Virus record (IMG/VR): IMGVR_UViG_2703718823_000003
DNA: 7,738 nt
Source: a virus
Taxonomy: Duplodnaviria; Heunggongvirae; Uroviricota; Caudoviricetes
Reading direction: 5' to 3' (one strand)
Made by a program: the position numbers and the translations under genes. This document shows positions 2,424 to 7,738 of the stretch, one piece after another (position 1 is the stretch's first letter; every line of letters begins with the position of its first letter). The notes under the pieces are model-generated. The model worked only from the letters and a program-made list of their open reading frames with translations, was not told the origin of the DNA and searched no databases.

Positions 2424-2436
2424 TTTTTTGTAAAAG

Positions 2437-2664
2437 CCCTCTACCCCATCTACCTGAATGAAATAAACGCATATTATTCAACATGATAAGTGGGTAGAGG
2501 GCTAGGTAGAAGGCTAATAAAACCTCTCTACCTCTTCTACCATGATTAAGATCGTTTGTGAGGGGCGGGTAGAGGATGGGTAGAGGGCCACGAAAGCCCT
2601 CTACCCATCTGAAAGCCGCGCCATTACTGACATGAAAGATGATTAGGTAGAGAGGTAGAGGAGG
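2437..2664. repeat. Iteron array, probable origin of replication
   Basis: About 11 copies of the core GGTAGAG(G) / (C)CTCTACC in both orientations, for example 2437-2445, 2446-2454, 2492-2501, 2504-2513, 2523-2532, 2533-2541, 2568-2576, 2579-2587, 2597-2606, 2646-2655, 2654-2661. The block 2568-2588 is an inverted copy of 2436-2454. Position directly 3' of the primase gene matches the usual pri-ori arrangement in PICI/P4-type elements. Confidence 0.7.
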
Positions 2665-3685: not shown

Positions 3686-3708
3686 GCCGGAGTAATCCGG
3701 CTTTTTTG
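3686..3708 (+). terminator. Rho-independent terminator
   Basis: Stem GCCGGA (3686-3691) / TCCGGC (3696-3701), loop GTAA, then a T6 run (3702-3707), immediately after the stop at 3677-3679. Confidence 0.6.
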
Positions 3709-5960: not shown

Positions 5961-5983
5961 GCCGGAGAAATCCGGCTTTTTTT
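5961..5983 (+). terminator. Rho-independent terminator overlapping the cosQ-side flank
   Basis: Stem GCCGGA (5961-5966) / TCCGGC (5971-5976), loop GAAA, T7 run (5977-5983). The hairpin is nearly identical to the one at 3686-3708. Confidence 0.5.
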
Positions 5984-6211
5984 ACGGGTCCTTTCCGGCA
6001 TATGGACCCGTTACGGGGCGGCGACCTCGCGGTTTTTCGCTATTTATGAGATTTTTTGAGGGGGTGGTTGTTGTTTAATTGTTTGGTATATCTAATTGAT
6101 AAGTAAGGTAAAAATAAAATAAATACAACAACCTTACGATGTATTTTGATGTCATTAATGTGAAAAAATTCAATGATATCAAATGGTTTTGTAAAAACAC
6201 ATGGTTGTTGT
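5984..6211 (+). other. cos site 1 (lambda-type cosQ-flank, cosN, cosB-like region), + orientation
   Basis: TTTACGGGTCCTTTCCGG...GTTACG | GGGCGGCGACCT | CGCGG matches the lambda right-end/cosN/left-end junction as recalled; the 12-nt cohesive-end sequence GGGCGGCGACCT is at 6016-6027. Downstream there are three copies of GGTTGTTGT (6066-6074 direct, 6125-6133 inverted, 6203-6211 direct), spaced like lambda cosB R3/R2/R1. Confidence 0.7.
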
Positions 6212-6404
6212 ATCGCGTATTTGATGGCGTAACAGAAAGTGATTTTTAACTTTACCGCTCTGTAACTACGGATTATTCCATGCTGGCACGGAGAACGGCT
6301 ACGGCATGACGCCACCCAGCCTATACAGAACAGTAAAGCCGATAAATTGTTAATCACGCGCAGCAATGCGTGTGATTTTTGCACACTTCCGGTTAACTGG
6401 TACG

Positions 6405-6590
6405 ATGTCCGGTTTTAGTGTCTGTTTTTTGCGCATGTCCGGTTCATGGAAAGCATGTTTTTATATTTTTCATATGGTTAACTTGCAGAGAAACCGGACA
6501 TGGATCCCGGAAAATTTTCATAAATAGTGAAAACGCGCGAGGTCGCCGCCCCGTAACGGGCCATAATTCCAGGAAGGACCCGACGACACC
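6405..6590 (-). other. cos site 2 (lambda-type cosQ-flank, cosN, cosB-like region), inverted orientation
   Basis: The reverse complement of 6500-6590 reads ..GGGTCCTTCC.GG....CCCGTTACG | GGGCGGCGACCT | CGCGCGTTTTCACTATTTATGAAAATTTTCCGG, almost identical to the lambda cos left end as recalled; cosN is at 6540-6551 on the minus strand. Three copies of ATGTCCGGTT / AACCGGACAT lie at 6492-6501, 6435-6444 and 6405-6414, at R3/R2/R1-like distances. Confidence 0.7.
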
Positions 6591-6615: not shown

Positions 6616-6897
6616 ATGACAGAAGCCGAACTACTGCGATTAATCCGTCGCGTTGCCGGAATCAGCCAGCAGGCTGACGAACAGGCCACGCAGCCGGACA
6701 GCGTGACAGCCGAAAATTATGTGCGTGTTGTTGCGGAGGTGATGCGCCGTGATGGTATCCAGCTTAATGATGCGGATATGCGCGACATACGGATCCGCGT
6801 TCTTGAAATGCTGGCCTACCGTCGCCGCGTGCAGACGTACAGGGAAAAAGCAAAAATAACGTACCAGTGGAAGAAGCCGGAGCGATTACGGCGGTAA
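6616..6897 (+). CDS. hypothetical protein (93 aa), Arg-rich
   Basis: ATG 6616 with a GGGGG stretch about 5 nt upstream. The track ORF extends upstream to GTG 6418, through the cos sequence, which is unlikely. Ends at TAA 6895-6897. No motif recognised. Confidence 0.55.
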   Translation: MTEAELLRLIRRVAGISQQADEQATQPDSVTAENYVRVVAEVMRRDGIQLNDADMRDIRIRVLEMLAYRRRVQTYREKAKITYQWKKPERLRR

Positions 6898-6917
6898 CTT
6901 GCTGATATTCCCGATAA

Positions 6918-7157
6918 CGCAAAATTGCGCTCTGTCCTAACCCGTTGATATTTTCGGGAACAGCCAACGGCTGAGGCCGGAACAACGATTATCTTTCAGA
7001 TAGTCAGAGCTACGAAATTTTCGTAGTTTAATTACTCGCCAGTTTATCGTTAACCCGTTGATATTTTCGGAAACCTCAATTTGAGGAAGTCGGCGCGGTA
7101 ACTCGCTGAACTTTAAGCAAAGCGCAAAATTGCGCTTGCTGAATAATCATTATGATT
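6918..7157. repeat. Cluster of direct repeats and dyad symmetries (candidate regulatory region)
   Basis: 20-bp direct repeat TAACCCGTTGATATTTTCGG at 6938-6957 and 7051-7070. Dyad CGCAA-AA-TTGCG at 6918-6929 and, extended, at 7121-7136. Palindromes CTACGAAA-T-TTTCGTAG (7010-7026), CCTCAA-T-TTGAGG (7074-7086), AATCAT-T-ATGATT (7145-7157). Confidence 0.5.
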
Positions 7158-7213
7158 ACGCAGATGATTAAGGAATGACCGAAGGCGGAAATTCGCCTGT
7201 GGTTAATGGGGGA

Positions 7214-7433
7214 GTTGCAGATCTGCAACTCGACCATGAAACTACGGAAACTACCCGTAGTTTGGGTAGTAAGAGTAACACCCAGATTTTGGGGCTTACT
7301 CGTGATACCCAAATTTGGGGTATCGGTGGCAACCATAACGACTTTCGTTACGGTTGATGCTTTTACCCCATTGGTGGAGGCTGGGCGGCCTGCTGTGGGC
7401 TTTTCCACCATTGGTGGAAAGGTGCAGATCTGG
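7214..7433. other. Palindrome-rich, potentially highly structured segment (candidate ncRNA or protein-recognition DNA)
   Basis: Perfect 16-bp palindrome GTTGCAGATCTGCAAC (7214-7229) with a related copy TGCAGATCTG (7423-7432). Hairpin AAACTACGG / CCGTAGTTT (7239-7263) with a competing ACTACCC / GGGTAGT pairing. Hairpin GATACCC-AAATTTG-GGGTATC (7304-7324). Hairpin TAACGA-CTT-TCGTTA (7336-7350). CCATTGGTGG (7368-7377) can pair with CCACCATTGG (7405-7414). Confidence 0.3.
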
Positions 7434-7633
7434 ATCATCATTACGGTGATCAAGGGTATGTAAAACCCACCAGCCTGATTAACAGTTAACCGGAAAAAAA
7501 TTCCGGTAGGTGGGGATCCCCATATCGACATTAACGCCCCTCATGAATTAGCGCGCTTCCCCCTGGAAAGATGACCCGCCTGTATATTTCTTGTGTCTAT
7601 TTGTTCCACGTTGTTTCATACAGTGCACCGAAC

Positions 7634-7655
7634 GGTGTAGTCACTGGTGTAGTCA
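7634..7655. promoter_or_regulatory. Tandem 12-bp repeat in an AT-rich region at the window edge
   Basis: GGTGTAGTCACT GGTGTAGTCATT, followed by AT-rich sequence running to the end of the window. Likely a control region for something outside the window. Confidence 0.25.
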
Positions 7656-7738
7656 TTTTGCGATTTATGGCATTTTTTGTAGTGCAAATTATTTAATTAA
7701 ATCAATGCGTTAAGTGAAATTAGTTATATATAACAGCA

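What the first reader, a model, noticed from the sequence alone, without database searches (positions are those of the whole stretch)
6918..7157. Ordered array of dyads and 20-bp direct repeats with no gene
The layout is dyad A (6918-6929), repeat B (6938-6957), palindrome C (7010-7026), repeat B (7051-7070), palindrome E (7074-7086), dyad A (7121-7136), palindrome F (7145-7157). This looks like a multi-site protein-binding platform. It could be a regulatory switch, a second replication or transfer origin, or recombination-site arm sequences.
Basis: seen in the sequence. Interest (0 to 1): 0.5.

Follow-up and report, generated by a model that had tools for sequence, protein, structure and literature searches.

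The report
Palindrome-rich spacer ending a phage satellite
The repeats and dyads are real and form the start of an 800-base, gene-free, palindrome-packed stretch that ends a family of E. coli phage satellites (PICIs, including the model EcCICFT073); it is not their replication origin, packaging site or integrase arm sites, and its function is still unknown.

Summary
The window is the right part of an rpp-less relative of the PICI satellite EcCICFT073, inserted in tqsA. The finding covers the first third of a non-coding field (6898-7709) lying between the last gene, a 93-aa ORF, and the island end. That field holds 18 perfect short palindromes against 2.9±1.6 in shuffles.

The layout is more regular than reported. 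There are four co-oriented units. Each is a 20-nt box (TAACnnGyTGA...; the two exact copies match the IHF consensus) followed 3 nt later by a 12-18 bp palindrome. The palindrome position is fixed but its sequence varies.

The same ORF93-plus-field module ends PICIs that differ in integrase and in packaging type. It was not found in phage records. It is mosaic, and box number and spacing vary.

The known functions are located elsewhere:
- Two λ-type cosN sites at 6016 and 6540.
- Iterons next to the primase gene.
- A doubled integrase arm motif at 7633-7655.

My best guess, at low confidence, is a DNA-level, BIME-1-like module of IHF sites and palindromes that acts as an architectural boundary. 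An RNA-level role or a recombination scar remain live alternatives. Interest is moderate.

The parts
6616..6897 (+). Last gene of the island: a 93-aa ORF (phrog_1561, unknown function). Its stop codon is the first three bases of box 1.
   Evidence: It is always found directly upstream of the field in relatives.
6895..6929 (+). Unit 1: degenerate box TAACTTGCTGATATTCCCGA (6895-6914) plus dyad A1 CGCAAAATTGCG (6918-6929).
6938..6973 (+). Unit 2: box B1 TAACCCGTTGATATTTTCGG (6938-6957; IHF consensus TATCAACGGGTTA on the minus strand) plus dyad CAGCCAACGGCTG (6961-6973).
6990..7026 (.). Free-standing palindromes TATCTTTCAGATA (6990-7002) and C, CTACGAAATTTTCGTAG (7010-7026). They lie in a 68-bp segment that is absent from EcCICFT073.
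7051..7086 (+). Unit 3: box B2 (7051-7070; IHF consensus on the minus strand) plus dyad E CCTCAATTTGAGG (7074-7086).
7099..7137 (+). Unit 4: degenerate box TAACTCGCTGAACTTTAAGC (7099-7118) plus dyad A2 AAGCGCAAAATTGCGCTT (7120-7137). It is a degenerate duplicate of the ORF93 3' end plus unit 1.
   Evidence: (D5, D6).
7144..7170 (.). Palindrome F TAATCATTATGATTA (7144-7158) plus a third half-site ATGATTA (7164-7170). Relatives carry symmetric variants such as TGGTCATAATGACCA.
7207..7329 (.). Module M, the most widespread block of the field. It contains the 20-bp perfect palindrome GAGTTGCAGATCTGCAACTC (7212-7231), four AAACTAC half-sites (7238-7275) and two copies of ACCCAnATTTGGGG.
7336..7522 (.). 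Further palindromes: TAACGACTTTCGTTA (7336-7350), TTTCCACCATTGGTGGAAA (7402-7420) and TGGGGATCCCCA (7511-7522). The stretch 7366-7707 travels with the att type.
7633..7655 (+). Doubled motif GGTGTAGTCActGGTGTAGTCA, the probable integrase arm-type sites. A copy lies upstream of int at attL.
   Evidence: L001 2067-2091. An analogous doubled motif is described in PMC10111431.
7700..7712 (+). The third perfect IHF consensus in the window, AATCAATGCGTTA, spanning the right end of the island (about 7709).

Best explanation
SHOWN. The finding is the left third of a conserved but mosaic non-coding module that ends E. coli and Shigella PICI satellites of the EcCICFT073 kind. The module starts at the stop codon of the last gene (ORF93) and runs to the attP arm. 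Its repeating element is a unit of roughly 45 bp. Each unit has a co-oriented 20-nt box (TAACnnGyTGATATTTTCGG) followed 2-5 nt later by a 12-18 bp palindrome. The palindrome keeps its position and its symmetry while its sequence changes. At least some units are degenerate duplicates of the 3' end of ORF93.

INFERRED. The module most likely works at the DNA level, in the manner of BIME-1/RIP elements. IHF would bind the well-formed boxes and bend the DNA. The flanking palindromes would be kept symmetric either by selection or by template-switch correction. Together they would form an architectural boundary between the packaging module (cos, ORF93) and the attP-int junction. That boundary is also the place where modules and accessory cargo are exchanged between satellites. 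The module is not itself the origin, the packaging site or the integrase arm sites.
For: The motifs are real and non-random.

The box and dyad keep a fixed register. Of 35 unique boxes in relatives, 25 are followed by a perfect dyad of >=5 bp at offset 1-6. The rate is 11% at random field positions and 2.9% in shuffled tails, and the other ten boxes carry imperfect dyads. At least eight different dyad sequences sit behind the same box register.

Box B is a perfect IHF consensus. There are only three perfect matches in the window: the two B copies and one at the att junction.

Several points favour DNA-level symmetry over RNA. The palindrome centres are 0-3 nt. Both-arm variants exist, for example TAATCAT.ATGATTA against TGGTCAT.ATGACCA, AGCGCAAAATTGCGCT against AGCTCAAAATTGAGCT, and AGATCT against AAATTT at the very centre of the 20-bp palindrome. 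G.T and A.C mismatches are equally common, 12 against 11.

The ORF93-plus-field layout recurs in islands with cos only, TerS or TerL, and with tqsA, clpS, phoQ or phage-gene insertion sites.

In L022 the field lies between the convergent ORF93 and an Abi cargo gene.

Unit 4 aligns to the ORF93 3' end plus unit 1 at 50 of 73 positions.
Against: No binding by IHF or any other protein has been shown.

The degenerate boxes (CTGAAC type) break the IHF consensus. The truly shared core, TAAC..G.TGA, may therefore mean something else.

The palindromes are too varied for one sequence-specific protein, and they are too short (5-10 bp arms) to extrude stable cruciforms.

Box number (0-7 per field) and spacing (mode 48, also 87-89 and 135) are not conserved.

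Blocks that are 95-99% identical between otherwise diverged islands show recent exchange, not necessarily constraint.

Published work shows that cloned cos sites and pri-ori function without this region, so no known step requires it.
Confidence: 0.3

Rival explanations
1. Recombination scar with self-maintaining palindromes. The field is weakly constrained spacer at the junction between the conserved ORF93 and the variable cargo and att region. Repeated unequal or illegitimate recombination at the conserved ORF93 3' end piled up partial duplicates. Template switching within quasi-palindromes keeps the short inverted repeats perfect without any selection.
For: Units begin with (GCGG)TAAC, which is the ORF93 stop-codon context, and unit 4 aligns with the ORF93 3' end. 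The structure is strongly mosaic, and box number and spacing vary. One relative carries the dyad-E core extended to a 25-bp perfect palindrome, CGACCTCCTCAATTTGAGGAGGTCG, whose left arm overwrites the 3' end of the box, as a templated event would. Central base pairs that cannot pair in a hairpin are still matched on both arms. Module M is uniformly conserved across arms and spacers alike. L015 shows a microhomology deletion that ends at a box.
Against: Dyad density is about 6-fold above the coding part of the window, and the cos1-cos2 non-coding spacer shows only a few short dyads in the same kind of scan. The field persists in more than 1500 E. coli genomes and in every PICI type examined, despite the general tendency of bacterial genomes to lose unused DNA. 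The box-to-dyad register is strict.
Confidence: 0.25
2. RNA-level element. The field is the 3' untranslated region of the island's one-directional gene set. Its hairpins would block 3' exonucleases or act as processing or termination signals, as REP hairpins do. In a more exotic version, the box+hairpin units would be nut-like sites bound by the arginine-rich C-terminal tail of ORF93.
For: The field starts at the stop codon of the last gene, and the boxes point the same way as all the genes. Single-strand folding is very strong: z = -4.35 for 6890-7180 and z = -8.30 for 7180-7470 on the + strand. Structure is conserved while sequence varies. ORF93 ends in an invariant basic tail, Y.WKKPERLRR. 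In L022 the field lies between convergent genes.
Against: The minus strand folds almost as well, z = -3.6 and -7.5. There is no excess of G.U-compatible mismatches on either strand. Many palindromes have centres of 0-2 nt, which is too short for an RNA loop. No intrinsic-terminator-like site was found from 6898 to 7738. No Rfam family matched. The box does not resemble boxA, and the loops are not boxB-like (comparison from memory). The ORF93 model has low confidence and no fold match.
Confidence: 0.2
3. Extended recombination or regulatory platform. The boxes and dyads bind the conserved excisionase and activator AlpA, ORF93 or helper-phage regulators. In the circular form, where the field lies upstream of attP and int, they would control int expression or the direction of recombination.
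For: After circularisation the field lies 50-800 bp upstream of attP and int, and int starts only about 25 bp beyond the attL arm motif. Co-oriented direct repeats are typical of excisionase sites (general knowledge). AlpA is conserved across islands whose integrases differ (PMC10111431).
Against: The region is 570-800 bp from the crossover site, far outside known attP arms. No copy of the box was found beside alpA or int apart from one 1-mismatch hit at L001 3461. No sigma-70-like promoter was found on the + strand. The palindromes are too diverse for a single regulator.
Confidence: 0.15
4. A second replication origin, a transfer origin or an accessory packaging site.
For: IHF sites combined with direct and inverted repeats are typical of oriV, oriT and cosB regions (general knowledge). 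The field lies 350 bp from the nearer cosN.
Against: The iterons lie next to the primase gene, and pri-ori alone is sufficient for replication in EcCICFT073. cosN is absent from the region, and both cosB sides point away from it. Cloned cos sites alone confer transduction. No relaxase gene is present. No AT-rich unwinding block is present; GC is 0.42-0.50. The field is kept whatever the packaging type.
Confidence: 0.05

Closest known systems
BIME-1 / RIP (RIB) elements of E. coli: an IHF site flanked by REP palindromes in extragenic mosaics
   Same: Both lie outside genes at the end of an operon. Both are mosaics of short motifs. Both combine an IHF-consensus box with short palindromes. In both, the number and order of modules vary between copies.
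   Different: These palindromes are not REP sequences, and they differ from unit to unit. The element is confined to PICI satellites, with 1-6 places per genome, rather than being scattered hundreds of times around the chromosome. Its boxes are all co-oriented and derive from the 3' end of a gene. IHF binding has not been tested.
Right-end non-coding region of the model PICI EcCICFT073 (between c1504-like ORF93 and phoQ)
   Same: This is the direct homologue. It has the same cos1, cos2, ORF93 and field order. It carries an exact copy of box B, three box+dyad units and the same arm-motif module.
   Different: The CFT073 field is shorter, about 535 bp. It lacks 6983-7050 and 7094-7365, which removes C, A2, F and module M. 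CFT073 carries rppA between the cos sites, whereas the window has only a 22-aa remnant. I found no description of this region in the PICI papers I searched and read.
F plasmid sopC and P1 parS centromeres
   Same: sopC is a tandem array of 43-bp direct repeats, each holding a short palindrome, placed directly after a small gene. P1 parS contains an IHF site.
   Different: Centromere palindromes are identical in every repeat, and the array comes with ParA/ParB-type genes. Here the palindromes differ and no partition genes are present.
λ nut sites (boxA plus the boxB hairpin)
   Same: Both pair a conserved linear box with a short hairpin of variable sequence a few nucleotides downstream, repeated within one transcription unit of a lambdoid-associated element.
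   Different: There is no boxA consensus and the loops are not boxB-like. The units lie at the end of the gene set rather than after a promoter. No strand asymmetry points to RNA.

Membership tests
Integrase arm-type sites of attP | The same motif occurs on both arms, within about 50-200 bp of the crossover site. | tested here: not met
   Boxes and dyads occur only on the right side, 570-800 bp from the island end at about 7709. A different doubled motif (7633-7655) is the one repeated next to int at attL.
Integrase arm-type sites of attP | The sites co-vary with the integrase and att specificity. | tested here: not met
   Modules from 6898-7365 are shared by islands inserted at tqsA, at clpS and in phage genes. 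Only 7366-7707 follows the att type.
Iteron-type PICI replication origin | Two sets of iterons flank an AT-rich block directly downstream of pri-rep. | tested here: not met
   Such repeats lie at 2433-2622, next to the primase gene. The finding region is 4.5 kb away and has a GC content of 0.42-0.45. The pri-ori segment is sufficient in EcCICFT073 (PMC6092414).
λ-type cos site | A cosN 12-mer (GGGCGGCGACCT) with cosB adjacent to it. | tested here: not met
   cosN occurs at 6016-6027 (+) and 6540-6551 (-) only, and both cosB sides face the 454-bp spacer between them.
IHF binding site | A match to WATCAANNNNTTR. | tested here: met
   Both B copies read TATCAACGGGTTA on the minus strand. The window has three perfect matches against 0.42 expected. 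The degenerate boxes at 6895 and 7099 have 1 and >=2 mismatches respectively.
IHF binding site | Demonstrated IHF binding and bending. | not testable with these tools
   This needs a gel shift, a footprint or ChIP.
BIME-1 / RIP element | REP-consensus palindromes flank the IHF motif, and there are many dispersed chromosomal copies. | tested here: not met
   The palindromes vary and do not resemble REP (REP consensus recalled from memory). All matches lie in PICI contexts, 1-6 per genome.
Known RNA families (Rfam 15) | A covariance-model match. | tested here: not met
   No hit was found from 6898 to 7738 even at E <= 1, and no tRNA or tmRNA was found.
Partition centromere (sopC / parS type) | Identical binding palindromes in every repeat, together with ParA/ParB-type genes. 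| tested here: not met
   At least eight different dyads follow the box. No partition genes are annotated in the island.

The most novel reading that the evidence does not exclude
ORF93 and the box+palindrome array form a dedicated gene-plus-cis-site pair that has not been recognised in PICIs. One version is an arginine-rich, N-like protein acting on nut-like box+hairpin RNA sites. Another is an array of different palindromes that senses or titrates DNA-binding regulators from different helper phages. In either case it would control whether transcription from the late and packaging module crosses attP into int in the circular satellite.
Probability: 0.08. Interest if true: 0.8.

Novelty: new variant of a known kind. 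Interest (0 to 1): 0.42.

Why it matters
PICIs are widespread satellites that move virulence and anti-phage defence genes. Their replication, packaging and interference modules have been mapped, but the stretch next to the cargo slot has not. This work defines a conserved, satellite-specific non-coding module present in more than 1500 of 5426 complete E. coli genomes and in the experimental model EcCICFT073. The question of whether it insulates, regulates int, or is a recombination scaffold for cargo exchange can therefore be tested directly by deletion. If it proves functional, it would add a cis element to the PICI life cycle and could explain how cargo and modules are swapped at this end. 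If it proves to be a scar, it would be a clear natural example of short palindromes kept perfect by templated mutation.

Tried and rejected
- Phage database: blastn of 6700-7738 found no match, so the field is not phage-derived.
- Rfam at E <= 1 and ARAGORN: nothing in the region.
- Coding potential: ORFs overlapping the field (7076-7531 minus strand, 7206-7463, 7175-7357, 6764-6985) have no PHROG match.
- Promoter and terminator scan: one weak minus-strand promoter-like site and no terminator in the field.
- ORF93:
  - No Pfam hit and no match in PDB sequences.
  - All 967 relatives are annotated as hypothetical, and there are only 36 cluster representatives.
  - The AlphaFold model reaches pLDDT 68 (three helices), and Foldseek against the PDB gives no match at E <= 0.001.
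- Strand test for RNA: G.T against A.C mismatches were 12 against 11, which is uninformative or negative. Both strands fold similarly.
- Arms against loops in module M: conservation is uniform, so the test is uninformative.
- Shared 9-mers between the field and the rest of the island: apart from the arm motif, the hits are at chance level. The AAATTGCGCTTTGCTT match lies inside the ylcI coding sequence.
- Genome-contig scan with ORF93: it returned one Shigella locus only, so cross-species comparison was limited.
- The 16-mer AGCGCAAAATTGCGCT: it is too short to be specific in IMG/VR.
- Fis, Lrp, LexA and sigma-54 consensus sequences: compared by eye and from memory, with no convincing match.

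Full report
CONTEXT. The last 1039 bases of the window are identical to E. coli STEC2018-607. In that genome they form the right end of an 11-kb island inserted in tqsA. The island carries an integrase, an AlpA-like regulator, Icd-like and Ash-like genes, DUF4222, a D5/P4-type primase, PerC, a λ E-like capsid protein, a gpD-like decoration protein and two small ORFs. This is the gene set of the Gram-negative phage-inducible chromosomal islands (PMC6092414, PMC10111431).

I fetched the model island EcCICFT073 and it has the same right end. The order is capsid, decoration, a 137-aa ORF (92% identical), cos1, rppA, cos2, a 93-aa ORF (87% identical), a non-coding stretch and then the chromosomal flank. 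The rppA assignment rests on a match to RppC, PDB 6HLK, at E = 5e-31. The window has no rpp gene, only a 22-residue remnant.

THE OBSERVATION.
- The 20-mer B occurs twice, and no shuffle in 200 produced a match.
- The 14-mer of dyad A occurs twice.
- The region is not an island of structure. From the stop codon of the last ORF (6897) to the island end (about 7709) there are 18 perfect dyads with arms of at least 5 bp and centres of at most 3 nt. Shuffles gave 2.9±1.6, with a maximum of 8 in 500. The density is 22 per kb against 3.7 per kb in the coding part of the window.
- In 37 non-identical relatives from IMG/VR, the first 600 nt after the ORF hold 13.4 dyads per kb, against 3.7 per kb in control DNA.

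A MORE REGULAR ANATOMY. Box B has degenerate copies at 6895 and 7099. The pattern TAACNNGYTGAWNYT has four perfect hits in the 25-kb locus, all of them here and all on the + strand. Each box is followed 3 nt later by a dyad:
- 6895 is followed by A1.
- 7051 is followed by E.
- 7099 is followed by A2.

I then collected boxes in relatives without reference to what follows them. Of 35 unique boxes, 25 carry a perfect dyad of at least 5 bp starting 1-6 nt downstream. The rate is 11% at random positions in the same fields and 2.9% in shuffled tails. The ten exceptions carry imperfect dyads at the same place. Working in the other direction, from dyads to what precedes them, at least eight different palindromes sit behind the same box register. 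They include AGCGCAAAATTGCGCT, CCTCAATTTGAGG, CAGCCAACGGCTG, TTCGCCAGCGGCGAA, TCCCCCATTGGGGGA, TGCAAATTTGCA, CCTGCAATGCAGG and TTCCACAGACTGTGGAA.

The unit is therefore a conserved asymmetric box plus a palindrome whose position and symmetry are kept while its sequence changes. Unit 4 aligns with the 3' end of the 93-aa ORF plus unit 1 at 50 of 73 positions (families D5 and D6). At least some units are therefore degenerate duplicates of the end of that gene.

WHAT IT IS NOT.
- Packaging site. The λ cohesive-end sequence GGGCGGCGACCT occurs at 6016-6027 (+) and at 6540-6551 (-), within 72-nt inverted arms. Both cosB sides face the 454-bp spacer between them. The minus-strand copy, together with its flank, is 94% identical to the cos regions of the Escherichia phages PhiR12_1 to _5. 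This mirrors cos1 and cos2 of EcCICFT073, and cloned cos sites alone confer transduction.
- Origin. Repeats of the published PICI origin type lie directly after the primase gene, at 2433-2622. The pri-rep-ori segment alone drives plasmid replication.
- Integrase arm sites. A doubled motif, GGTGTAGTCActGGTGTAGTCA at 7633-7655, recurs just upstream of int at attL. An analogous doubled motif was reported at fixed distances from the attP centre in related islands (PMC10111431). The modules from 6898-7365 are shared by islands inserted at tqsA, clpS, phoQ and phage late genes. Only 7366-7707 follows the att type.
- Known RNA, tRNA, coding sequence, terminator or + strand promoter. None was found.

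DISTRIBUTION.
- blastn finds parts of the field in 1538 records of 5426 complete E. coli genomes, with 1-6 places per genome, and none in 50,697 phage records.
- The field is mosaic. Different blocks are conserved independently.
- The B-to-B distance of 113 is kept only in near-identical relatives. Across 97 unique fields there are 0-7 boxes, and the spacings cluster at 48, 87-89 and 135.
- The 93-aa ORF always comes immediately before the field, whatever precedes that ORF: cos only, a TerS gene or a TerL gene.
- The 20-bp palindrome of module M is found in 66 IMG/VR loci. In 63 of them an ORF93 homologue lies 0-800 bp upstream.

DNA OR RNA? As a single strand the region folds far better than shuffles. 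For 6890-7180, z is -4.35 on the + strand and -3.60 on the minus strand. For 7180-7470, z is -8.30 and -7.47. This follows directly from the palindrome density and does not identify a strand.

Three observations lean towards DNA-level symmetry or a templated mutational process:
- Many palindromes have centres of 0-2 nt, too short for an RNA loop.
- Symmetric changes occur even at the innermost pairs, for example AGATCT to AAATTT inside the 20-bp palindrome, with a G.T intermediate in another island.
- Among 53 unique dyads with one internal mismatch, G.T types (12) and A.C types (11) are equally common.

Both-arm variants of the same palindrome are frequent. One relative carries the dyad-E core extended to a perfect 25-bp palindrome whose left arm overwrites the end of the box, as a template-switch event would.

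THE BOX. Read on the minus strand, B is CCGAAAATATCAACGGGTTA. This contains a perfect IHF consensus, WATCAANNNNTTR. The window has only three perfect matches: the two B copies and one across the island end. The degenerate boxes of the CTGAAC type break the consensus, so IHF can account for the well-formed boxes only.

ORF93. This is a narrow enterobacterial family with no annotated function. It has an invariant basic C-terminal tail. The model has moderate confidence, shows three helices, and has no fold match. Its strict adjacency to the field suggests a gene-plus-site pair, but nothing tested here shows an interaction.

VERDICT.

The best-supported reading, at low confidence (0.3), is a DNA-level module of IHF sites and palindromes. 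It resembles BIME-1/RIP elements in architecture but is not a member of that family. It would mark the boundary between the packaging end and the attP-int junction, which is also where modules and cargo are exchanged.

Two alternatives remain close. One is a recombination scar whose palindromes are kept perfect by template switching (0.25). The other is an RNA-level 3' element (0.2).

The element is conserved, satellite-specific and not described in the PICI papers I searched and read. It is present in the experimental model, so deletion experiments would settle the question.

Noticed in passing
window 5985-6056 (+) and 6511-6582 (-): There are two λ-type cos sites in inverted orientation, with cosN at 6016-6027 and 6540-6551, separated by a 454-bp AT-rich spacer (GC 0.33). 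The minus-strand copy and its cosB side (ATGTCCGGTT elements at about 6406 and 6437, and inverted at about 6494) are 94% identical to the cos regions of phages PhiR12_1 to _5. This mirrors cos1 and cos2 of EcCICFT073.
   Followed up: partly
window 6057-6510, compared with L104 2660-3094: This island lacks the rpp gene that sits between the two cos sites in EcCICFT073. Only a 22-aa remnant is left, at 6255-6320 on the minus strand. The island may therefore depend on a helper-identical cos rather than on Rpp redirection.
   Followed up: partly
window 2433-2622: Probable replication origin just after the primase gene. AAAGCCCTCTACCC occurs at 2433 and 2593, and there are inverted GGGTAGAGG arms at 2562-2622.
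   Followed up: no
window 7633-7655 and L001 2067-2091: The doubled motif GGTGTAGTCActGGTGTAGTCA occurs near both island ends. These are probable integrase arm-type sites, analogous to the TGTATTGC doublet reported for helper-embedded PICIs.
   Followed up: partly
window 3686-3707 and 5961-5982: Two 22-nt, 95%-identical hairpins of intrinsic-terminator form (GCCGGAGnAATCCGGCTTTTTT) close the SSB block and the capsid block.
   Followed up: no
window 7218-7520: Five GATC sites lie within 300 bp, about four times the expected number. Two of them sit at the exact centre of long perfect palindromes (7212-7231 and 7511-7522).
   Followed up: no
window 6616-6897 (residues 68-93): ORF93 ends in a conserved basic tail, YRRRVQTYREKAKITYQWKKPERLRR, whose W85 and K86 are invariant. 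It loosely recalls the arginine-rich RNA-binding motif of λ N. That resemblance is from memory and was not tested.
   Followed up: partly
L015 about 8518-8540: In one relative the island is cut off by a deletion that joins the end of a box directly to the phoQ-side flank at a short microhomology. The deletion removes attR.
   Followed up: no
L006, L007 and L022: Close relatives of this island are inserted inside lambdoid prophage late genes (a head-morphogenesis gene matching λ sequence by memory; capsid). These are the helper-embedded PICIs. L022 carries an abortive-infection gene between the field and attR.
   Followed up: partly
L001 3395-3445: The int-alpA intergenic region holds five direct repeats of the (G/C)AACAA type, preceded by the palindrome CAGTATGCGCATACTG. 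They may be regulator sites for the early promoter.
   Followed up: no
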